A stretch of 64,000 nucleotides of DNA, from the IMG/VR virus record IMGVR_UViG_3300045015_000053. One strand, 5' to 3'. Shown here piece after piece: positions 3,103-62,720 of this stretch; positions within the stretch are counted from its first letter, which is position 1; the number at the start of each line of letters is the position of its first letter. This DNA comes from a virus (lineage: Duplodnaviria; Caudoviricetes). Made by a program: the position numbers and the translations under genes. The notes under the pieces are model-generated. The model had not been told where the DNA came from and searched no databases. It was given only the letters and a program-made list of their open reading frames with translations.

Positions 3103-3292
3103 CGGGACACAGGTACGCATCACCGGCAACCACACCCTGGTAAAAGGGTCTTTGGTTTTGAACTGCACTGGTCTGACTGGCATAGTTGACCGCTATTGCC
3201 ATTGGTCCGACTGTTTCGTTGTGCTTCTGGACGATCCGCCGCACCACGAACTCTGGCTCGGCGAACTGGAGATCCAAAAGGTATTACCATGA
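3056..3292 (+). CDS. hypothetical protein
   Basis: ATG 3056; ATGA overlap with the dnaE start. Confidence 0.55.
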   Translation: MNQWLKAIWMRSAFPSGTQVRITGNHTLVKGSLVLNCTGLTGIVDRYCHWSDCFVVLLDDPPHHELWLGELEIQKVLP

Positions 3293-4710
3293 GCATCCCT
3301 GTCACCGGCCTGGAACACCTTCACCTGCACACGGATTTCTCGCTTCTCGACGGGTTCGGGATGGTGGAGGAGTACACGGAGCGGTGGAAGAAGCACGGCC
3401 GCTTCCTGTGCATCAGTGACCACGGGATGATGGGAGCCGTACCGCGCCAGATCAAAGCCTGTGAAGCCGTCTGCGAAGAACTCAAAGACAAAAACGCCTT
3501 CTCGCCCATCTTCGCCTGCGAACTTTACGTCAACCGCTACCACACCGAAGCCACGCCCGACGTTGCCAGCCGCGAAAAGCTGCTCGCGGGCATGAACCCT
3601 GATGAAAAGGCCGGTTTCAAAGTCCGTGGCAGTCACCTGCTCGCCATCGCCTACAACGAAGTTGGCTACAGTAACCTCGTCAGAATGACGACGTGGGCGT
3701 ACCTGAACGGTTTCTACGGCAAGCCCCGCGTCAACTACGAACAACTTCTGAAACACAAAGAGGGTCTGATCTTCACGAGTTGCTGCTACAACTCCGAGAT
3801 CGGTCGCGCCTTCGAGTACGGCGGGACCAGTTACGAAGAGAAGCGTGACGCCGCCGCTGTCGTCATCGAGCGGTACATTCAGATGTTCGGTTCGGAATAC
3901 TTCTACCTCGAAATCATGCTCCTCGATTTCGAGAAACAAAAACCCTACGACAAGTTCATCATCTGGGCGGCAGATAAGTACAAGCTCCGTCTGATCGTCA
4001 CCAACGACTGCCACTACTGTCTGCCCGAAGACTCCGAGTACCAGCGTCTGATGTTGATGCAGCAGACCGGAAAGACAATCAAAGACATTCAAAAGGCACT
4101 CAACGAAGAGGGCATAAAAGACCTGTTCGAGCTTCAGGACCAAAACTTGTGGATGAAGACCGAAGAAGAACTGAATGACATGTGGGTGAAGAAGTACAGC
4201 GACACTATCGATCTGGACATCTTCCAGTGCGCCAAAGCGAACACCGTCAAGATCTGCGAGATGTGTAAGGGCGTGAAGCTCGACCGCCGCAACAAACTGC
4301 CCAAGCTCAAGAACGCCGAGGACGAACTCCAAACCCACATCCTGAATGGGTTCAAGGAACGCCACATCGTCGGCAAACACTACAAGGCTCGCGCGGCTCA
4401 GGAATACGAACTGATCTGTCGCAAGGGGTTCGCGTCTTACTTCCTGATTCAGAAGAAGATGGTGGACGAAGCCCGGCGGTACTACCGCGACGTGCTGAAG
4501 CTCGGAAGTGGCTACGAGGCTGTGGGTCCGGGCCGTGGGTCGGCCGTGGGCGCACTCACCTGCTATCTGTTGGGCATCACCGACGTTGACCCGGTGGAAG
4601 AAGATCTGCTGTTCGACCGCTTCTTGAGCGACAGTCGCGGCGGTCGGCAGATCAAACTGCGGTTCTCGAACATCGACCCGATCATCACCAAAAAAGAAGA
4701 AGCCGCTTGA
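3289..4710 (+). CDS. dnaE: DNA polymerase III alpha, N-terminal half (PHP domain to GPGRGS motif)
   Basis: HLHLHTDFSLLDG, ISDHG, IVTNDCHY, GPGRGSAVGALTCYLLGITDVDP...LLFDRFL; ends before the catalytic DxD. Confidence 0.92.
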   Translation: MSIPVTGLEHLHLHTDFSLLDGFGMVEEYTERWKKHGRFLCISDHGMMGAVPRQIKACEAVCEELKDKNAFSPIFACELYVNRYHTEATPDVASREKLLAGMNPDEKAGFKVRGSHLLAIAYNEVGYSNLVRMTTWAYLNGFYGKPRVNYEQLLKHKEGLIFTSCCYNSEIGRAFEYGGTSYEEKRDAAAVVIERYIQMFGSEYFYLEIMLLDFEKQKPYDKFIIWAADKYKLRLIVTNDCHYCLPEDSEYQRLMLMQQTGKTIKDIQKALNEEGIKDLFELQDQNLWMKTEEELNDMWVKKYSDTIDLDIFQCAKANTVKICEMCKGVKLDRRNKLPKLKNAEDELQTHILNGFKERHIVGKHYKARAAQEYELICRKGFASYFLIQKKMVDEARRYYRDVLKLGSGYEAVGPGRGSAVGALTCYLLGITDVDPVEEDLLFDRFLSDSRGGRQIKLRFSNIDPIITKKEEAA

Positions 4711-6701: not shown

Positions 6702-7079
6702 GGGGATGAAAAGGTTTCGATACGGTACGGAGGTTGTGAGTTGCACGCCGTGGTTGAGCGAAGGGCCACGTTAAAAATCGTTCAAACTCCATCTGGCAAA
6801 ACCAGTGGTCTGCGTCTGGTGGGCGACCGCCCGGCGCTCCGTCTCGCGGCTTGACCGCGACGGGTCCGCGAGGGACTTCAGATAACTCGCGGGTCCGCAA
6901 CACATCTGGATCGGTCATCAGGGTTGCTCCCTGACTGATGGCCGGAACTACCAGGGAAGCTTGCTCGTGACCTTGATGTCGGTAAGAGGTTACGGGGACT
7001 CCAGGCCCGACTAAGCGTGTGAACGAAATTTACAGTTGAAGTAGCGTACACGCGGGTTCGACTCCCGCCATCTCCACTA
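6702..7079 (+). ncRNA. ssrA: tmRNA, tag (A)GKTSGLRLVGDRPALRLAA
   Basis: 5' GGGGATGAAAAGGTTTCGA; 3' T-arm GCGGGTTCGACTCCCGC and CATCTCC-A with G3:U wobble; tag frame 6795-6854 ends LAA-TGA. Confidence 0.93.
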
Positions 7080-10135: not shown

Positions 10136-12991
10136 ATGAAGAACGAGGAAGTTGACACACTTCGCATGATGTGCAAGGACGCCCTCGCCGCACGCAACCT
10201 TCAAAACTGCCCGATTCACACCAAGCGACTGAAGTGGGAGATCGCCGAGATCAAGGCCCAAGACGAGGCCGCGTACTTCATCGACCTTCACGCCCGTGGC
10301 GTGAAGTACCCCAAGAACGAAAACAACCTTCTCGTCGCGTGGCTGCTCGGCATCTGCGACGACTATGAGATCGAGAAAGACCCTGAGTGCAACTACGGGG
10401 AGTTCCCCGACATTGACGTGGACTACCTCAAGGTGGTCCGCGACTACCTGAAGAACGAGTGGGCGTTGAAGGAGTTCGACGGCCAGGGCTTCCATACTTG
10501 CAGCATCGGCAACTACAACACCTTCGGGATCAAGCAGGGCTTCATCGAGTGCGCGGTCACCTACGGGGAAGACCGCCACGAGATCAACGCCATCACCAAG
10601 CAACTCAAACTCAAGGACGACGAGGGCAAGGGGCTGACGTTCGACAAGGCTCTCGAACTGTATCCCGAACTCAAGGCGTATTCCGAGAAGTACCCGCACA
10701 TCGCGCGGGCGGTGAAGAAGATGCTTCACCGAAACAAGAACATGGGGAAGCACGCGGGCGGTCTGATCATCGCCGACAGCCCCATCGACAACCTCGTGCC
10801 GCTCGTCAAGAACGCGAAGGACGGGAGCATCAGTTCGGCGTGGGTGGAGGGTCTGCACGGTCAGGACTTGGGGCCGGTAGGTCTGATCAAGTTCGACATG
10901 CTCGTCATCGCGGACCTTGAACGGATCGCGATGATCAACCGGATCATCAAGAAGCGGCACGGGCTTCAGGGCGTGTGCGCCAAGCCGGAAACGCCGGACT
11001 GGGACTGGAGCGACGGCAGCTACCGCCACGACCCGAAGACCCTCGAACTGGCGAACAAGGCCGACCTTCTGGGCATCTTCCAGTTCGACTCGGACGGGAT
11101 TCGGAAGTTGGTCCGCGAGGGCGGGGTGACCAACTTCCGCGACATCGTCGCGTACAGTGCGATCTACCGGCCCGGCCCGCTCAACATGAAGATGGACAAG
11201 GCGTACACCGAGCGGAAGCACGGCCGGGAGGAGTACACCGTACACCAACTGCTCGAAAAGTACCTCGGCTACACCTACGGTGTCATGTGCTTCCAAGAGC
11301 AGGTAATGCAGATGCTCCACTTCGCGGGCAACATCCCGCTGAAGGATACCTACGCCGTCGTCAAAGCCATCGCCAAGAAGAAGGTCAAGGGTTTCGCCAA
11401 GTACAAAGAAAAGTTCATGAAGAACGCGGCGGTCAATCTCGGCCTGACCGAAGAACAGGTTGTCCACCTGTGGGGTCAGATCGAGAGCTTCGCCGAGTAC
11501 GGTTTCAACCGCTCGCACAGTTGTGCGTACAGCTACATATCGGCGCGTCTGCTGTATCAGAAGGCCAACTACCCGTTGGAGTTCTGGGCCGGCACGCTCG
11601 CGTGCGAAGAAGACACTGACACGCTGAACCTGTACCGCCGTCAGGCTCAACGGGCCGGGGTGTCGCCGAACTACATCGACCTGAACAAGAGCCACCACAC
11701 TTTCAGCATCTGCGACGAAGACAATCAGATCTACATGGGCTTCGGAAACATCAAGGGCGTGGGCGAAGCCGCCGCCCGGAAGATCGTGGAGGTGCGAGAG
11801 GCGGGCGGGCCGTTCAAGGGCATCGAAGATTTCATGCTGCGGTACGGAACCGACGCGAAAGTTCTCCGCGCCCTCATCGGGTTGAGACTGTTCAAGGAAA
11901 GCGACCCAGTGACGCTCGCGAAGTTCGTGGAGAACTACAAGGAGTACATCACCAAGCAGCGGCAGCGGCACCAGCGGTACAAGGACAGCATGGAACGCTA
12001 CGACGCCAAGATCAAAGAACTGGTTCCGACCAATCTCCACCCTTTCATTTACCGGGACGGTTTCCTAGACAGCGTTCAGAAGAAGCTCGACAAGGACTTG
12101 GAGAAGGAAGTCGAGATCGAGGAAGAGTACGAAACTGGCGAGACGCAAGAGATCGAAAAGGTCGTTCGCGTTCCGAAGAATGACAACAGCGAGGCTTACG
12201 AGGCCGGCGAAGACATTCTTGTTTACGAGGCCGGCGAGGGCGATCAGGACTACGAGGACGTTGAAGCGTACACCGAGGTTGTCGAGAAGGTGACCGTTCC
12301 GGTGATGGCCACTCGGATCATCAAGAAGCTGAAGAAGTACAACCCGTATAAGCAATTGAAGAAGGAGTTTCAGTTGCGGGCGCGGACCATGAGCCAGTAC
12401 GTCGAGCGGAACGAAGAAGAGGCGAAGAACACGCCGAGTCTGGCGACGTTCAATTCGTCGTCCGTCACCATCGACCCGAAATACGTCGCCCTGCTCCGCT
12501 CGCGGTTGCAGTCCGAGGTGACGTATCTGGGGTTCGAGTGGCAGACGGAGATGGAACGCAGCCCGGATTTCAACCCAGACACGCCGCACACTTACGACGA
12601 CGCGGAGATTCTGGCTTCGCAGGGGAAGAGTACCGTGATGCTGGACGGCCAGATCATGGAAGTGCAAAGTAAATTGGCGAAGAACAAGCGGACGAAGTAC
12701 CACTCTCTTGTATTGATAGACGCACTCGGTCGGCGCGGGTACATCAACGTATGGTCGGACGACTGGGAGCGGTGCAAGGACATTCTCAAGAAGGGGAACT
12801 TGGTCCGCTTGGTGGTCCGACAGCCCACCAAAGGATTCAGCAGCTACTCGCTGTGGTCCCCTCGCGACCGTCGCAGCGGTCTGGGCGGTGTCGTCCAAGC
12901 CGTCCGTCTGATGAAGGCGGAAGAAGAAACGCTGTCGGAAGACGACTTCGAGAAGAAGATGACCGAATTAACCGGGGAGACAGATGAGTGA
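10136..12991 (+). CDS. dnaE: DNA polymerase III alpha, C-terminal half (catalytic palm, fingers, HhH, OB)
   Basis: FPDIDVDY, GKHAGGLII, IKFDML, GIFQFDS, AIYRPGP, YGVMCFQEQVM, YGFNRSHS, GFGNIKGVG. Confidence 0.93.
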   Translation: MKNEEVDTLRMMCKDALAARNLQNCPIHTKRLKWEIAEIKAQDEAAYFIDLHARGVKYPKNENNLLVAWLLGICDDYEIEKDPECNYGEFPDIDVDYLKVVRDYLKNEWALKEFDGQGFHTCSIGNYNTFGIKQGFIECAVTYGEDRHEINAITKQLKLKDDEGKGLTFDKALELYPELKAYSEKYPHIARAVKKMLHRNKNMGKHAGGLIIADSPIDNLVPLVKNAKDGSISSAWVEGLHGQDLGPVGLIKFDMLVIADLERIAMINRIIKKRHGLQGVCAKPETPDWDWSDGSYRHDPKTLELANKADLLGIFQFDSDGIRKLVREGGVTNFRDIVAYSAIYRPGPLNMKMDKAYTERKHGREEYTVHQLLEKYLGYTYGVMCFQEQVMQMLHFAGNIPLKDTYAVVKAIAKKKVKGFAKYKEKFMKNAAVNLGLTEEQVVHLWGQIESFAEYGFNRSHSCAYSYISARLLYQKANYPLEFWAGTLACEEDTDTLNLYRRQAQRAGVSPNYIDLNKSHHTFSICDEDNQIYMGFGNIKGVGEAAARKIVEVREAGGPFKGIEDFMLRYGTDAKVLRALIGLRLFKESDPVTLAKFVENYKEYITKQRQRHQRYKDSMERYDAKIKELVPTNLHPFIYRDGFLDSVQKKLDKDLEKEVEIEEEYETGETQEIEKVVRVPKNDNSEAYEAGEDILVYEAGEGDQDYEDVEAYTEVVEKVTVPVMATRIIKKLKKYNPYKQLKKEFQLRARTMSQYVERNEEEAKNTPSLATFNSSSVTIDPKYVALLRSRLQSEVTYLGFEWQTEMERSPDFNPDTPHTYDDAEILASQGKSTVMLDGQIMEVQSKLAKNKRTKYHSLVLIDALGRRGYINVWSDDWERCKDILKKGNLVRLVVRQPTKGFSSYSLWSPRDRRSGLGGVVQAVRLMKAEEETLSEDDFEKKMTELTGETDE

Positions 12992-45653: not shown

Positions 45654-46097
45654 ATGTTCGGTTTGTTCGGCTGGCTGTTCGGTCGGAGTTCCAACAAGGG
45701 GAAATCGCCCAAGAAGCCCGTCGAACCCGAACGGCTTCGATTCGTCAAAGCTCTTTGCGAGCGTAATCCAGAGGTCAACAAGTCCCCCGGCCAGTGGTCG
45801 TTGGGTTACATGTACACCTTCTGCATGATTTTCCCTGACGGCATCAAGATTGAAGTCGAATACAACATCGTGCGGCGCGAGTGGGACATGGAAATCTGGA
45901 GTGCCAACGCCGGCACCTTCCTGTACTACTACGACTGCCTCGACCGCAAGCCTTACGAAACCATCGACTACTTGATTGATCGTTTCGGCTTGCAGGCCAA
46001 GCTGAACAGGGCCATCGCAGAGAAGAAAGCCCGCGAAAGCAAGAAGAATGATCAAGTCGCCAAAATCAAGGCGAAATACCTCGGAGATCAGTCGTGA
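45654..46097 (+). CDS. hypothetical protein
   Basis: GGAG RBS. Confidence 0.6.
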   Translation: MFGLFGWLFGRSSNKGKSPKKPVEPERLRFVKALCERNPEVNKSPGQWSLGYMYTFCMIFPDGIKIEVEYNIVRREWDMEIWSANAGTFLYYYDCLDRKPYETIDYLIDRFGLQAKLNRAIAEKKARESKKNDQVAKIKAKYLGDQS

Positions 46098-46432
46098 CTC
46101 GTGACATTGAAGACAAGGCGACAGAACGCGCCAGAAAAGTCGATACCACTCTGTTGCCGTTCAAGTCCTCGGCGACGGACTGGCTGACGTGGATCAACGA
46201 CGCCGGACAGTGGATGTTCATCGAGAAGGCGGTCGTAGCCGCCGCCGCAACCCACTACGGTTACGAGTTCGACGCCGCGTTCAAGTGGGTGGGACAGACC
46301 ATTCTCGACTGGTTGCAGAAACCGGAGAACGCCATCAGGCCGCGTGAGATCTGGAACTTCAACTTCCGTGGTGGGTTCAGTGTGAAGTTCGGCGCGTTCC
46401 AGAACCAGTGTTTTGTGTTCATGCCGCGATAG
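46094..46432 (+). CDS. hypothetical protein
   Basis: GTGA overlap. Confidence 0.55.
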   Translation: MTRDIEDKATERARKVDTTLLPFKSSATDWLTWINDAGQWMFIEKAVVAAAATHYGYEFDAAFKWVGQTILDWLQKPENAIRPREIWNFNFRGGFSVKFGAFQNQCFVFMPR

Positions 46433-46434
46433 CG

Positions 46435-46464
46435 AAGAAGCCCCGGAGATCTCCGGGGCTTCTT
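46435..46464. terminator. 30-bp perfect palindrome between convergent genes
   Basis: AAGAAGCCCCGGAGA/TCTCCGGGGCTTCTT. Confidence 0.8.
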
Positions 46465-46467
46465 GCT

Positions 46468-46767
46468 TTAGAACGTCAGTTCCGAGGCCGCGAACGACAA
46501 GAGCATGCCGTTGTCGAGTGCGACGAGCCAGTTCGGAACCGAAACTCTGGCCTCCGACACTTTCTTGACTTTCTCTTTGCCGTACTGGTTTTTCTTGTCG
46601 AGCTTCACTTTGAACTCGTGGATGTACGGATAGGTGTATGGCCCGGCCAACACCGTACCCATCAAGTCCTGAAGTGCGCCCCCAACGGAATTGACTTTGA
46701 CCCGCTTGCCCTCGTCGTTTCGTCCCTGGACGAGTGTGGCATCATCGGACAGTTTGGGATGGAGCAT
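46468..46767 (-). CDS. hypothetical protein
   Basis: ORF converging on the terminator. Confidence 0.6.
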   Translation of the reverse strand: MLHPKLSDDATLVQGRNDEGKRVKVNSVGGALQDLMGTVLAGPYTYPYIHEFKVKLDKKNQYGKEKVKKVSEARVSVPNWLVALDNGMLLSFAASELTF

Positions 46768-46921
46768 AGCAATTAAGTAGTAACCCGGCTCAGAATTTGC
46801 TCCTGCGGCATACGATAAGAGATCGGCAAAAATCTGGAATTAGGGTTTACAAAGTCCGGGGGTTTGTCGATACTGAAATTGTGACGGGTGGGACGCGACG
46901 AGCAAATAAAACAACGACAAG

Positions 46922-46950
46922 TTGACAAACTGCTCCGAACGGCCTACACT
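46922..46950 (+). promoter_or_regulatory. sigma70-type promoter of the long non-coding unit
   Basis: TTGACA-17 nt-TACACT. Confidence 0.8.
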
Positions 46951-47135
46951 GACTTGACAAGACACCGGAGACACGCCGTGCCGGGTAGGATCGAATGAAT
47001 GGGCGACGTTCGGTCGCCGGCACGGTGTGCTTATGGCGGTCGGTTTGAAACGGCAAGCACGCAAAAACGGACAACGTTCAACTAAGATTGCGTTCTCCAA
47101 ACTTGTGCGACCCGTATGCCTTCCGACCGCCTCCT

Positions 47136-47230
47136 GGGGGAGTAGCTCAGAGGCCAGAGCGCAATCTAGGGAGCCGATTAAAAACCGGCAAACGTGATTG
47201 AGGTCGTTGGTTCGACTCCAACCTCCCCCA
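47136..47230 (+). ncRNA. tRNA-like RNA with 29-nt insert in place of the anticodon loop
   Basis: GGGGGAG/CTCCCCC-A acceptor, GCTC/GAGC D stem, CAATC/GATTG stem, GTTGG-TTCGACT-CCAAC T arm. Confidence 0.75.
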
Positions 47231-47635
47231 CTCGGCAGGATGTTAGTAGCGGACTACATTACACCAACACCAATGTGTCTCTACGATTTTTTGCCTGCCA
47301 CAACATGCCCCTGGTGGGGCGATCTGCCGGAATGGGCGACGGCAGACGTAACGCCAGGGGCTTCTTAAATCCAGAACGGGTCAGCGAAAAAGCACCAACG
47401 GCATGTAAGAGTGCCTACCCGTTCTGGACTCGTCTTCCGCCTTATCAGCGGAAGTGGTGGAGGCGACGGTGTCACCAACATCGCTGCCCTTCGGAGAGTA
47501 AACTCCGAGCGACTCCGGTCGCGAAACAAATCTGGTGGATCGCTGGCTACTGCCGGCCCCCGGAGTACAGTCTTCGGACGGGCTTGACCCGGAAACAAAA
47601 CTGATGTGGAGTTCCTGTAAAAAGGGGCTTCATAT

Positions 47636-47707
47636 GGGGAGCAGGTGTCAAGGGACACGTCCTGGCTAATCACCGGGAAGAGTGGGGTTCGATTCCCCGG
47701 CTCCCCT
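47636..47707 (+). tRNA. atypical tRNA, anticodon AAT (Ile-like) with C37 and 4-nt D loop
   Basis: GGGGAGC/GCTCCCC; GTGTC-AAGG-GACAC; CCTGG-CTAATCA-CCGGG; TTCGATT T loop. Confidence 0.55.
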
Positions 47708-47921
47708 CTGGCGATGGGGATATACCCCTCGCCTCTCACTCGCAACATTTTTGACCCGGTCGGGGTGCGATCCCCGTGGGTATGCAGTAGCGGGTGTACA
47801 TTCATGAAAAGCGGAGGGACGTAATGTCCGAACACTACCAGAGGGGACCGCCCCTGAGAATGTACTACCCCTATATGGCACCCATGTCCGCATACCGCAT
47901 CTGATCGCGCGGGCCGGGTGA

Positions 47922-47959
47922 CAAAAACCCCAGTGAAACCCACTGGGGTTTTTGTTTTT
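47922..47959 (+). terminator. intrinsic terminator
   Basis: CAAAAACCCCAGTG-aaacc-CACTGGGGTTTTTG then TTTTT. Confidence 0.88.
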
Positions 47960-47974
47960 CAAGATAGATACAGC

Positions 47975-48769
47975 ATGCACACCGTCTTCGCCGAGTGGCT
48001 GTTCGAGCGGACCACCGATCCCGAACGCCGCGCCAGAATCGACAAGGCTTTCAACACCCTGAAGGCGTTCATGGAAAAGGTCGTCAAAGAAGACACCTTC
48101 TCCGACTACTTCCAGACGGACGGCGACTTCTACTACTTCTTTCCCTGCGTCAAGCACCTGCCCGAAGTCTTCAAAGGGAACATGGAGTTCATCGCTCAGA
48201 AGTTCGACAAGGAAGCTCAACAAGACACGAACCCTCTGATGGGCCAGCAGATCGACTACAGCGGCGGGTTCAACTTCCTCGACCACGATCCGCCGCTGTT
48301 CACCTTCGTCTTCCAGACCGACCGCAAGACGTTCATCCAGAACTTTCCGAAGTATTGTGCCAACTGGTTGTCACAGGTTCGGCAGACCTTCAATCACGAG
48401 TACAACCACTACCTCGACTGGCTCGACTCGGACGGGAAGGCGATCCCCGCCAAGAACATCTGGAACGCCGGCGCGGGCGAGGCCCAACGGAAGAAATACT
48501 TCAACTCGACGCACGAGGTCAACTCGTTCTTCACCGACATGGTGATGGACGACTTCGAGTTCGTGCGGGGCGGGATGTTCTCGAAGATGCCGCCGGCCAA
48601 GAAACTCGCGGTGTTCGAGAAGATGTACGGCCGGGACGCTCGCGAGTACGTCGCCAAGTTCTGGACCCGCAAACAGGGCTTCTCCGAGTTCTCCACGGAA
48701 ACCCGCAAGCGGCTGTCGAAACGACTGTACGCCGCCTACCAGCAACTGAAGGCCGAAATCTCGGCTTGA
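47975..48769 (+). CDS. zincin-like HExxH protein with CTS-like N-terminus
   Basis: TAGATA 47965-47970 plus 4 nt; MHTVFAEWLFER; FNHEYNH...YFNSTHEVNSF. Confidence 0.7.
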   Translation: MHTVFAEWLFERTTDPERRARIDKAFNTLKAFMEKVVKEDTFSDYFQTDGDFYYFFPCVKHLPEVFKGNMEFIAQKFDKEAQQDTNPLMGQQIDYSGGFNFLDHDPPLFTFVFQTDRKTFIQNFPKYCANWLSQVRQTFNHEYNHYLDWLDSDGKAIPAKNIWNAGAGEAQRKKYFNSTHEVNSFFTDMVMDDFEFVRGGMFSKMPPAKKLAVFEKMYGRDAREYVAKFWTRKQGFSEFSTETRKRLSKRLYAAYQQLKAEISA

Positions 48770-48775
48770 AATGTC

Positions 48776-48792
48776 GCGCAATTTCGGAGACT
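48776..48792 (+). repeat. 17-bp intergenic direct repeat, copy 1
   Basis: GCGCAATTTCGGAGACT, identical at 50749-50765. Confidence 0.8.
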
Positions 48793-48842
48793 GTTTTCCC
48801 CGTGCTTGTTGGTAGTGTTCACACTCTACCAATGAGGGAAAC

Positions 48843-49151
48843 ATGCTGCACTACGTCACGCCGGAAATGGGCGACAAGGCTCCCGAAAGCGCCAAGACGT
48901 TCGCCAAACTCGCCCACTACGGCCGGCACTATTTCCTCGATTCCACCCTCGGCCCGGACGTGATCAAGGGCATGGGAGTCGTCTACCGTGGGCAGTACAA
49001 GGAAGACGCCAGCGACGACCCCCTCAAGATGGAACTGCGTTGCGAGAAGGGTTCCAAACTCGCGAACCACTACAGCTACAAGGTGACCATCCGGGCGTTC
49101 GAGAAACTTGGTAAAACCATCGACATCGCAGTGGACTGCCCACTGGATTAA
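48843..49151 (+). CDS. hypothetical protein
   Basis: GAGGG RBS. Confidence 0.6.
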   Translation: MLHYVTPEMGDKAPESAKTFAKLAHYGRHYFLDSTLGPDVIKGMGVVYRGQYKEDASDDPLKMELRCEKGSKLANHYSYKVTIRAFEKLGKTIDIAVDCPLD

Positions 49152-59699: not shown

Positions 59700-59832
59700 G
59701 TTGTGGTAGCTCAGTAGTAGAGCAGCGGACATGGCGAAAGCCTGTTGTCTCGCAATTTTTGCCCGCAAGGGATGCCTGATGGGATTACATTTTAATCCGC
59801 CGGTCGCAGGGTGCGAATCCTTGCCCACAACA
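59700..59832 (+). tRNA. tRNA-Lys(TTT) with 59-nt intron-like insert (59731-59789) between positions 32 and 33
   Basis: GTTGTGG/CCACAAC-A; GCGGA/TCCGC stem; removing 59731-59789 gives loop C-TTTTAA. Confidence 0.75.
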
Positions 59833-61417: not shown

Positions 61418-61544
61418 CTCCGATTTTGAAGGCTCTGGTTCCCCTTGTGGGTGGTAAAAAGATCGCGCATAATCATCACGTTGCTGCGATTGGGCTGTAG
61501 AAATCGAAACCCCCAATGTCTGCGTAGCAGACAGGGAGTAAGTG

Positions 61545-62720
<1,176 letters not shown>

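What the first reader, a model, noticed from the sequence alone, without database searches (positions are those of the whole stretch)
47136..47230. tRNA scaffold with an elongated, doubled anticodon arm
Seen: canonical acceptor, D and T arms. The anticodon loop is replaced by a 6x6 internal loop (UAGGGA/AAACGU), a GCCG/CGGC stem and the loop AUUAAAAAC, which contains an anticodon-like UU-AAA-AA. I found no excision that gives a canonical U33 loop. Inference: a tRNA mimic (decoy for a nuclease, synthetase or T-box-like sensor) or a processing signal within the long ncRNA.
Basis: partly seen in the sequence, partly recalled or inferred. Interest (0 to 1): 0.65.

Follow-up and report, generated by a model that had tools for sequence, protein, structure and literature searches.

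The report
tRNA-shaped partner of phage Y RNA
This is a real, conserved tRNA-shaped RNA gene of a huge lake phage whose anticodon arm is too long to read codons; it sits directly in front of a small Ro60-type "Y RNA" hairpin and most likely supplies the tRNA-processing cuts that release it.

Summary
Window 47136-47230 is a strong tRNA cloverleaf (Rfam 52.7 bits) with a 29-nt insert-bearing anticodon region: a 5-bp stem, a 6x6 internal loop, a 4-5 bp inner stem and an A-rich loop.

It is not chance or decay. Three other phages carry the same design (L001, G070, G055). Compensatory changes occur in 4 of 7 acceptor pairs, 5 of 5 outer-stem pairs and 3 of 4 inner-stem pairs. No conserved U33 or anticodon exists, so it is a non-decoding tRNA mimic, not a spliced tRNA.

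The new context is this. Three nt after its discriminator begins an ~66-nt hairpin of a family I modelled (R2). That family has strong covariation and the YrlA-like AAUGC...GGAYUACAU signature. In other phages it lies inside YrlA arrays 78-360 nt from Ro60 genes. There it usually starts 3-8 nt after an ordinary tRNA. This phage encodes Ro60.

Best reading: the tRNA-shaped module of a tRNA-Y RNA tandem. RNase P and tRNA 3'-end processing would release the Y RNA. The function of the long arm is unresolved.

Earlier agents of this scan had already reported Ro60 and Y RNAs in this genome. The tRNA-Y hairpin tandem and this short-arm family are my additions. I class it as a new variant of a known kind.

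The parts
46922..46950 (+). Sigma-70-type promoter TTGACA-N17-TACACT of the ~1-kb RNA operon
   Evidence: Read directly from the sequence. Both hexamers are invariant in the relative L001.
46957..47135 (+). 5' leader, poorly conserved, presumed to be removed by RNase P
   Evidence: The window/L001 alignment has many gaps and mismatches here, whereas everything downstream is about 90% identical. No coding signal.
47136..47230 (+). The finding: tRNA-shaped RNA with an elongated anticodon arm. Acceptor 47136-47142/47223-47229. D arm 47145-47160. T arm 47206-47222. Discriminator A at 47230.
   Evidence: Rfam tRNA 52.7 bits. Fold. Four-phage covariation.
47162..47200 (+). Elongated arm. Outer stem 47162-47166/47196-47200. 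Internal loop 47167-47172 and 47190-47195. Inner stem 47173-47177/47185-47189. A-rich loop 47178-47184.
   Evidence: Outer stem 5/5 and inner stem 3/4 pairs show compensatory changes across G000, L001, G070 and G055.
47234..47299 (+). Short Y-RNA-type hairpin (model R2). Lower stem GGCAGG/CCUGCC, AUGU internal loop, upper stem GUAGCGGAC/GUCUCUAC, invariant GGACUACAU. It starts 3 nt after the discriminator.
   Evidence: RNAalifold on three phages. R2 gives 88.4 bits here. Family covariation. Relatives lie next to Ro60 and YrlA.
47636..47708 (+). Second, compact tRNA-shaped module ('Ile AAU'). Its anticodon loop differs in L001 (CUAAUCA against CCAAAUA).
   Evidence: ARAGORN. Rfam tRNA-Sec-like 25.7 bits. 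L001 copy.
47777..47885 (+). Longer Y-like stem with the same AUGC...GUAGCGGGUGUACAUU signature, at the 3' end of the operon
   Evidence: RNAalifold of window and L001. Reading the signature as Y-like is my inference.
47926..47959 (+). Intrinsic terminator (G+C hairpin followed by a U run)
   Evidence: Sequence. Conserved with compensatory changes in L001.

Best explanation
The element is a non-decoding tRNA mimic. It is the tRNA-shaped 5' module of a tRNA-Y RNA tandem in a Ro60-encoding huge phage.

It folds as a normal L-shaped tRNA. U8, A14, G15-C48, G18G19, the UUCGA T loop and the 7-bp acceptor stem with A73 are all present. Its anticodon arm, however, is about 11 base-pair layers longer than in any tRNA, roughly one helical turn, so it cannot reach a codon.

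It is transcribed from its own promoter as the first structured unit of a ~1-kb RNA operon. RNase P would cut at G1 (47136) and discard the unconserved leader. tRNA 3'-end processing (RNase Z, or RNase E plus exonucleases) would cut at or after A73 (47230). The second cut would also create the 5' end of the Y-RNA hairpin, whose basal stem starts 3 nt later.

The released 95-nt mimic probably persists and has a partner of its own, because its arm is kept by compensatory evolution.

What is shown: the shape, the conservation, the absence of a conserved anticodon, the abutment to a Y-type hairpin, and Ro60 in the genome. What is inferred: the cleavages, Ro60 binding of the hairpin, and any role of the long arm.
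For: (1) The tRNA scaffold is strong and complete.

(2) Family members were found in L001 (syntenic; neighbouring protein 83% identical), G070:70325-70417, G055/L093 (R1 69.4 bits) and possibly L088. In my structural alignment every helix stays paired. Compensatory changes occur in acceptor 4/7, outer stem 5/5, inner stem 3/4 and T stem 1/5 pairs. The terminal loops stay A-rich: UUAAAAA, UCAAAAG, GAAA, UGAAAA.

(3) Positions 32-38 are not conserved: UAGGGA, GGGGGA, AAUAGG, CUA. The discriminator is A, U, A, A.

(4) The hairpin just downstream is conserved in G000, L001 and G070. A model of it (R2) finds 12 copies in 8 phage records, with 96.4% of cells paired, 9 of 14 pairs changed on both sides, and 0 of 500 shuffles reaching the covariation score or the percentage of cells paired. 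The copies share (G)AAUGC...GGAYUACAU, matching the Rfam YrlA consensus cggCgaAUGCuuggGgaaCUAc and, in some copies, the published Ro60 motif GNCGAAN0-1G.

(5) In G083 the hairpin lies 78 nt upstream of Ro60 and directly follows three Rfam YrlA matches (40.7-64.2 bits). In G093 it lies about 360 nt upstream of Ro60 and is followed by a YrlA match of 47 bits.

(6) The hairpin's basal stem starts 3-8 nt after the discriminator of an ordinary tRNA in G010 (Phe), G093 (Thr), G091 (Pro, Ile) and G081 (Ile, Met). This is the same geometry as here.

(7) G000 encodes Ro60 (Pfam vWA_Ro60 52.6 bits, TROVE 31.6 bits). G070 and G055 have Ro60 or a Ro60-like protein.

(8) Precedent: M. smegmatis YrlA and YrlB are processed from one precursor, and YrlA is cut by RNase P and receives CCA (PMC4201824).
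Against: An ordinary tRNA suffices as the upstream partner in other phages. The processing role therefore does not explain why this arm is long and conserved.

In G055 the family member sits in a tRNA array, has an encoded CCA, and is followed by a different hairpin that R2 does not recognise.

Ro60 lies about 76 kb away in G000, whereas bacterial Y RNAs are usually within 2 kb of rsr.

R2 hits were found in 6 of 31 Ro60-positive records and 1 of 15 other records, mostly fragments. That is not a significant enrichment on its own.

Rfam YrlA matches neither the element nor the hairpin here.
Confidence: 0.5

Rival explanations
1. The long arm is itself the protein-docking site. The element would be a miniature Y RNA in tRNA gene order, with the tRNA body as effector module and the extended anticodon arm as the Ro60 or RNP handle. 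It would act alone, not merely as a processing handle.
For: Every evaluable genome with a family member has Ro60 or a Ro60-like gene: G000, G070, G055.

Relatives carry other tRNA-scaffold RNAs with long arms 3-6 kb from Ro60: G002:25615, G070:101019, G097:25509, sharing a UUUUAUAGUU loop.

Longer-insert tRNA-order genes in these phages carry the YrlA signature AUGC...GGGAWUACAU on the arm's 3' strand (searches compared).

The arm's 3' strand shows a weak likeness to cggCgaAUGC: 6-7 of 10 positions in ours, L001 and L093. The arm is kept by compensatory changes.
Against: The arm lacks the AUGC and GGGAWUACAU signatures and one whole helix of YrlA. The motif likeness is within what chance gives for short degenerate motifs. 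A much better Y-type module lies right beside it. Rfam YrlA does not match.
Confidence: 0.2
2. It is a tRNA-Pro gene with a short hairpin intron. A protein endonuclease would remove the intron and a phage ligase would reseal the tRNA to give a decoding tRNA.
For: ARAGORN -i calls tRNA-Pro(ggg) with a 22-nt intron. CUAGGGA reads as a Pro-type loop, and G35 G36 and A73 fit ProRS identity rules (my knowledge).

Relatives have tRNA genes with 21-nt hairpin inserts whose removal restores perfect loops: G002:13184-13278 gives CUCUUAA, and G003:206778-206873 behaves likewise.

G000 encodes an Rnl2-family RNA ligase and G055 an RtcB.
Against: Position 33 is A (ours) or G (L001) on a 5-bp stem. No single excision rule gives a canonical loop in all four members, and L001 has U73.

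There is no bulge-helix-bulge motif: the two 6-nt strands cannot form the 4-bp helix. No EndA or RtcB was found in G000, though the record is only 37% complete. No RtcB was found in the complete G002, which carries a related long-arm gene but no member of this family.

The phage already has a normal tRNA-Pro(GGG). The inner hairpin is under compensatory selection, which is unusual for a discarded intron.
Confidence: 0.08
3. It is a decoy or sponge for a host tRNA-targeting defence nuclease or tRNA-binding sensor. It would present a tRNA body with an A/U-rich pseudo-anticodon loop.
For: The inner hairpin resembles an anticodon stem-loop (UU-AAA-AA here, U-GAA-AA in G055). Huge phages carry many counter-measures against anticodon nucleases (PMC7824862). 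The genome holds many duplicated, deviant tRNAs.
Against: There is no direct evidence. The pseudo-loop varies (C33 in L001, a GAAA tetraloop in G070). The fixed position in front of a Y hairpin in three phages is not explained.
Confidence: 0.08
4. It is a decaying tRNA gene with a neutral insertion, tolerated because only the cloverleaf shell is needed or nothing is.
For: The anticodon-like bases drift between close relatives. The phage has many redundant tRNAs.
Against: All five helices remain paired in four divergent phages with many double changes, including the inserted hairpin. The architecture and A-rich loop persist across a GC-rich and an AT-rich phage.
Confidence: 0.04

Closest known systems
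YrlA/YrlB Y RNAs with Ro60 (Rsr) of bacteria and mycobacteriophages (Chen et al. 2014, PMC4201824; Rfam RF02553)
   Same: A tRNA-like module is combined with a Ro60-type stem. Several Y RNAs come from one precursor. [quoted passage not shown] Ro60 is present in the genome. The adjoining hairpin shares AAUGC...GGAYUACAU with the YrlA consensus.
   Different: In YrlA the tRNA-like domain is circularly permuted and sits at the tip of the Ro60 stem. Here a complete tRNA-order cloverleaf with free acceptor ends stands in tandem, 5' of a hairpin that has only a small apical loop. The cloverleaf has an extra-long anticodon arm. Rfam YrlA does not match. Ro60 is 76 kb away.
MHV68 TMERs: viral tRNA-like RNAs followed by pre-miRNA hairpins released by tRNase Z (PMC3534370)
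   Same: A non-decoding viral tRNA-like element lies directly upstream of a functional hairpin RNA, and tRNA 3' processing would define the hairpin's 5' end.
   Different: TMERs belong to a eukaryotic virus, are Pol III transcripts and carry miRNA cargo. Here the setting is a phage sigma-70 operon with Y-RNA-type cargo. Cleavage is not shown here.
MALAT1/mascRNA-type tRNA-like 3'-end processing signals (Rfam RF01684)
   Same: A tRNA-like fold is used as an RNase P/Z landing pad inside a long non-coding transcript.
   Different: There the tRNA-like element lies at the 3' end of the cargo. There is no sequence relation, and only the second tRNA-like module gave a weak mascRNA hit (17.9 bits).
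Intron-containing tRNAs (archaeal/eukaryal bulge-helix-bulge introns; bacterial group I introns)
   Same: There is an insert in the anticodon loop region of a tRNA gene, and ARAGORN -i models it as an intron.
   Different: There is no BHB motif. The insert is far too short for a group I intron. No canonical loop results after excision across the homologues. No splicing endonuclease was found.

Membership tests
Decoding tRNA (Rfam RF00005) | Cloverleaf with a 7-bp acceptor stem, D and T arms and the elbow nucleotides | tested here: met
   52.7 bits over model positions 1-71. G18G19, the UUCGA T loop and G15-C48 are present.
Decoding tRNA (Rfam RF00005) | 5-bp anticodon stem closed by a 7-nt loop with U33 and a conserved anticodon | tested here: not met
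   There are 29 nt between the stem strands. Positions 32-38 differ in all four family members, and U33 is absent in ours and in L001.
Decoding tRNA (Rfam RF00005) | Aminoacylation and use on the ribosome | not testable with these tools
   This needs acylation assays or tRNA-seq. The arm is about 11 layers too long for ribosomal geometry (inference).
Protein-spliced tRNA intron (BHB type) | Bulge-helix-bulge: two 3-nt bulges around a 4-bp helix at the exon-intron junctions | tested here: not met
   UAGGGA and AAACGU can form only one G-C pair.
Protein-spliced tRNA intron (BHB type) | Excision leaves a canonical anticodon loop | tested here: not met
   All seven ways to remove 22 nt leave A at position 33. 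ARAGORN's best is UAGGGGU. No common rule works across the homologues.
Protein-spliced tRNA intron (BHB type) | Splicing endonuclease and RtcB-type ligase available | tested here: inconclusive
   PF01974 and PF01139 are absent from G000, but the record is only 37% complete. An Rnl2-type ligase is present.
YrlA Y RNA (RF02553) | Match to the family covariance model | tested here: not met
   No YrlA hit on 46000-49000 at E<=1, nor on 47225-47965 at E<=10. Gene order is permuted relative to the model, which limits this test.
YrlA Y RNA (RF02553) | tRNA-like domain with T-arm and D-arm features | tested here: met
   A full cloverleaf is present.
YrlA Y RNA (RF02553) | Ro60-binding stem with the GNCGAAN0-1G motif | tested here: inconclusive
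   In the arm there is only a partial match (GGCAAACG, one mismatch). The adjoining hairpin family has the exact motif in some members (GGCGAAUG, GACGAAUG in G081), but ours reads GGCAGGAUG.
YrlA Y RNA (RF02553) | Encoded near a Ro60/rsr gene | tested here: inconclusive
   Ro60 is in the same genome but about 76 kb away. Relatives of the adjoining hairpin lie 78-360 nt from Ro60.
YrlA Y RNA (RF02553) | Physical binding to Ro60 | not testable with these tools
   This needs a pull-down or EMSA.
tRNA-like processing handles (TMER / mascRNA logic) | tRNA-shaped element directly abutting the cargo RNA | tested here: met
   The discriminator is at 47230 and the hairpin stem starts at 47234. The same 3-8 nt spacing behind tRNAs is seen in four other phages.
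tRNA-like processing handles (TMER / mascRNA logic) | Cleavage by RNase P and RNase Z at the tRNA-like ends | not testable with these tools
   No RNA reads could be obtained.

The most novel reading that the evidence does not exclude
The hairpin inserts in these phages' tRNA-shaped genes could be a new kind of short, protein-dependent tRNA intron in bacterial viruses. This would cover the present 22-nt insert, the 21-nt inserts in G002 and G003 whose removal restores perfect anticodon loops, and the Y-RNA-bearing inserts. They would be cut out and resealed by the phage's RNA repair enzymes (Rnl2 or RtcB type). One gene would then yield both a working tRNA and a small RNA.
Probability: 0.07. 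Interest if true: 0.9.

Novelty: new variant of a known kind. Interest (0 to 1): 0.55.

Why it matters
Little is established about how bacterial and phage Y RNAs are made or why they are built from tRNA parts. This locus, together with the tRNA-hairpin tandems I found in other Ro60 phages, suggests a simple rule: a tRNA, or a retired tRNA, placed 3 nt in front of the Y hairpin lets the host's tRNA-processing enzymes set the Y RNA's 5' end.

The idea is directly testable with a T7 transcript and RNase P/Z. It would be a phage counterpart of the herpesvirus tRNA-miRNA units. It would also show an intermediate between ordinary tRNAs and the permuted tRNA-like domain of YrlA.

The conserved arm, one helical turn too long, additionally defines a small family of tRNA mimics whose partner is unknown.

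For annotation, such genes are mislabelled by ARAGORN as tRNA-Ser, tRNA-Pro or 'tRNA-???'.

Tried and rejected
BLAST of 46700-48000 against 50,697 phage records gave no match.

Exact and degenerate patterns of the element in viral contigs gave nothing. A 25-nt invariant of the operon in metagenome contigs gave nothing.

Relatives sought through neighbouring proteins:
- Phosphoesterase and DnaE searches in viral contigs gave nothing.
- ORF 47995-48963 proved to be the wrong frame.
- The true gene 47975-48769 has one close homologue, which led to L001, and distant ones without synteny.

The long ncRNA is not detectable by BLAST in 16 related huge-phage records.

Ideas rejected:
- K-turn or BHB readings of the 6x6 loop, because the sequence does not fit.
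- A recent duplicate of another tRNA of the phage: no close paralogue exists.
- TROVE search over 37 records with insert-bearing tRNA scaffolds: only 2 hits, so the wider class of such scaffolds is not generally tied to Ro60. That Pfam search also misses divergent Ro60, as in G055.

Full report
**Observation.** It has a 7-bp acceptor stem with A73, canonical D and T arms, and an AGGUC variable loop. In place of a 17-nt anticodon arm it has 39 nt: CAAUC, UAGGGA, GCCG(A), UUAAAAA, (C)CGGC, AAACGU, GAUUG. Rfam's tRNA model scores 52.7 bits (E 1.8e-8 in the window). It aligns end to end with a 29-nt local insert where the 7-nt loop should be. The MFE fold reproduces the doubled arm (-37.0 kcal/mol, z -2.66). 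ARAGORN forces it into Ser(gga) with a false variable arm. With introns allowed it gives Pro(ggg) with a 22-nt intron and an A33 loop.

**Setting.** The window lies in an IMG/VR virus record of 188,369 bp that CheckV rates 37% complete. The record is a fragment of a huge phage with about 50 tRNA genes. It also has a tmRNA, a split DnaE and an EF-Tu gene.

A GC3 frame plot shows no coding signal between about 46780 and 47900. That stretch has a TTGACA-N17-TACACT promoter at 46922-46950 and a terminator at 47926-47959. The flanking genes are 46468-46767 (-) and 47975-48769 (+).

**Homologues.** The 264-aa downstream protein has one close relative (83% identity). Its 28-kb Logan contig (L001) is syntenic. 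L001:9129-9224 is the orthologous element (Rfam tRNA 52.0 bits, 31-nt insert).

The operon aligns at 85% mean column identity. The leader is poorly conserved and the part behind the element is about 90% identical.

I used the phage EF-Tu to collect 37 related viral records and Ro60 to collect 80. I added a scaffold pattern and a covariance model of the element, R1. These gave two more members of the same design:
- G070:70325-70417.
- G055 (L093:13432-13518; R1 69.4 bits). This one is in a tRNA array and has an encoded CCA like its neighbours.
- L088 is a possible fifth member.

In a script-built structural alignment of the four, every helix stays paired. Compensatory double changes occur in 4/7 acceptor, 5/5 outer-stem, 3/4 inner-stem and 1/5 T-stem pairs. 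The D stem is invariant. The terminal loops remain A-rich: UUAAAAA, UCAAAAG, GAAA, UGAAAA. The element is therefore under selection for its whole shape, including the insert.

**Not a decoder, probably not an intron.** The would-be positions 32-38 read UAGGGA, GGGGGA, AAUAGG and CUA in the four members. The discriminators are A, U, A, A. No single excision rule restores a U33 loop in all of them. The two 6-nt strands cannot form a bulge-helix-bulge.

The record has no EndA or RtcB, although it is incomplete and does carry an Rnl2-type ligase. The phage already has a normal tRNA-Pro(GGG). The bases CUAGG(G) shared by three members look like the relic of a Pro-type anticodon loop, which hints at the ancestor.

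The arm has about 15-17 layers instead of 5, roughly one helical turn longer. That is incompatible with decoding (inference from ribosome geometry).

**The neighbour is the key.** Three nt after the discriminator begins a hairpin, 47234-47299. It consists of:
- a lower stem, GGCAGG/CCUGCC;
- an internal loop, AUGUUA against GAUUUUUUG;
- an upper stem, GUAGCGGAC/GUCUCUAC;
- then UAC and a small apical hairpin.

It is conserved behind the family members of L001 and G070.

A model of it (R2) finds a second copy in this genome (G000:84608-84685, 46.4 bits). It also finds copies in six further records. The 12 aligned copies are 96.4% paired. Nine of 14 pairs change on both sides, and 0 of 500 shuffles reach the observed covariation score or the percentage of cells paired.

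The copies share (G)AAUGC right after the lower stem and an invariant GGAYUACAU. This parallels the Rfam YrlA consensus cggCgaAUGCuuggGgaaCUAc. Two G081 copies carry the published Ro60 motif GNCGAAN0-1G exactly (PMC4201824).

Position relative to Ro60:
- In G083 the hairpin lies 78 nt upstream of Ro60 and directly follows three Rfam YrlA matches (40.7-64.2 bits).
- In G093 it lies about 360 nt upstream of Ro60 and is followed by a YrlA match of 47 bits.

I therefore read it as a short Y RNA of the YrlB kind (a long hairpin; PMC4201824).

G000 encodes a Ro60 (vWA_Ro60 52.6 bits, TROVE 31.6 bits), though about 76 kb away. G070 has a 53%-identical Ro60. G055 has a divergent Ro60-like protein (BLASTP 4e-9 over about 300 residues).

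**A recurrent tandem.** In the other phages the same hairpin begins 3-8 nt after the discriminator of an ordinary tRNA: Phe in G010, Thr in G093, Pro and Ile in G091, Ile and Met in G081. The Met case has an encoded CCA in the spacer. So 'tRNA, about 3 nt, Y hairpin' is a conserved unit. In G000, L001 and G070 the tRNA slot is filled by the long-armed mimic.

**Mechanism proposed.** The tRNA shape recruits RNase P at G1 and tRNA 3'-end processing at A73. This removes the leader and gives the Y hairpin its 5' end. M. smegmatis YrlA and YrlB are likewise cut from one precursor, and YrlA is an RNase P substrate that receives CCA. MHV68 releases pre-miRNA hairpins from tRNA-like RNAs with tRNase Z (PMC3534370).

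The model does not explain why the arm is long and conserved. The mature mimic probably has its own partner. The main rival is that the arm is itself an RNP handle, making the element a mini Y RNA in tRNA order. Decoy and intron readings are less likely.

**Caveats.**
- No RNA data could be obtained.
- The family has only four or five members.
- R2 hits (6 of 31 Ro60-positive records against 1 of 15 others, mostly fragments) are not significantly enriched. The weight rests on adjacency to Ro60 and YrlA in two unrelated records and on the shared signature.
- G055's member is followed by a different hairpin.
- Most insert-bearing tRNA scaffolds in viral contigs occur without a detectable TROVE gene.

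**Relation to earlier work in this scan.** Other agents had reported Ro60 and YrlA-type RNAs, some in tRNA order, in this genome. I used that as a lead. I checked Ro60 and the YrlA signature myself. My additions are the short-arm mimic family and the tRNA-Y hairpin tandem.

In the papers I could search, I did not find phage Y RNAs described as tandems with tRNAs.

Noticed in passing
window 61542-62720: A full-length EF-Tu gene (all three Pfam domains) sits inside the phage tRNA array. Homologues 52-74% identical occur in 37 viral contigs.
   Followed up: partly
window 3196-4710, 6702-7079, 10136-12991: The DnaE-type polymerase is split into two ORFs several kb apart (the PHP/N-terminal part, and the finger/HhH part). 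A tmRNA gene (113 bits) lies between them.
   Followed up: no
L066 (G002:13184-13278) and L068 (G003:206778-206873): These are tRNA genes of relatives with 21-nt hairpin-plus-A/C-tail inserts in the anticodon loop. Removing the insert restores a perfect loop (CUCUUAA = Lys CUU; CU-NNN-AA). They are candidates for short phage tRNA introns.
   Followed up: partly
L050 (G002:25615-25717), L207 (G070:101019-101124), L194 (G097:25509-25614): A second family of tRNA-scaffold RNAs has a three-helix anticodon arm ending in a conserved GG-UUUUAUAGUU-GCC loop. Each lies 3-6 kb from the phage Ro60 gene. It is absent from the 188-kb G000 fragment.
   Followed up: partly
window 59700-59832; L053 (G002:6212-6337); L214 (G070:79999-80126); L193 (G094:194-319): Long-insert tRNA-order genes carry AUGC...GGGAWUACAU, the YrlA signature, on the 3' strand of the arm, closed by UUCG or GNRA tetraloops. 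This agrees with the earlier agent's reading of them as tRNA-order Y RNAs.
   Followed up: partly
window 47777-47885: A third Y-like long stem (AUGC-A-GUAGCGGGUGUACAUUC paired with GAAUGUACUACCCCUAU) closes the operon. About 320 nt of conserved structured RNA (47313-47635) between the modules remains unassigned and matches no Rfam family.
   Followed up: partly
window 47178-47184 versus 47285-47293: The A-rich terminal loop of the long arm is complementary to the U-rich 3' internal loop of the adjoining hairpin (UAAAAA with UUUUUG here; CAAAAG with CUUUUUG in L001). This could be a loop-loop contact or mere low complexity.
   Followed up: no
L211 1670-1795 and 1800-2230 (G070): Behind the family member and its Y hairpin, G070 has a run of further odd tRNA-scaffold RNAs. 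One has a ~60-nt insert in the D loop. G070's family member also swaps the elbow pair: no GG in the D loop, and C56 changed to A.
   Followed up: no
L070, L072, L073, L084, L095-L097, L099, L101, L107: In 45-80 kb phages there is a widespread tRNA-scaffold gene (acceptor GGGAGUG) whose anticodon arm is replaced by about 31 nt containing the palindrome GGUGUACACC. These records have no Ro60.
   Followed up: no
G000:87740-87827 (outside the window): An 88-nt tRNA-like gene just upstream of tRNA-Pro(GGG) has a weak D stem and a GACGG-AGAU-CCGUC hairpin where the anticodon arm should be. Rfam tRNA gives 37.7 bits. ARAGORN misses it.
   Followed up: no
G055:35783-37876: The RtcB ligase gene matches the Pfam model in two pieces within one 735-aa ORF, which suggests an intein or other insertion.
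   Followed up: no
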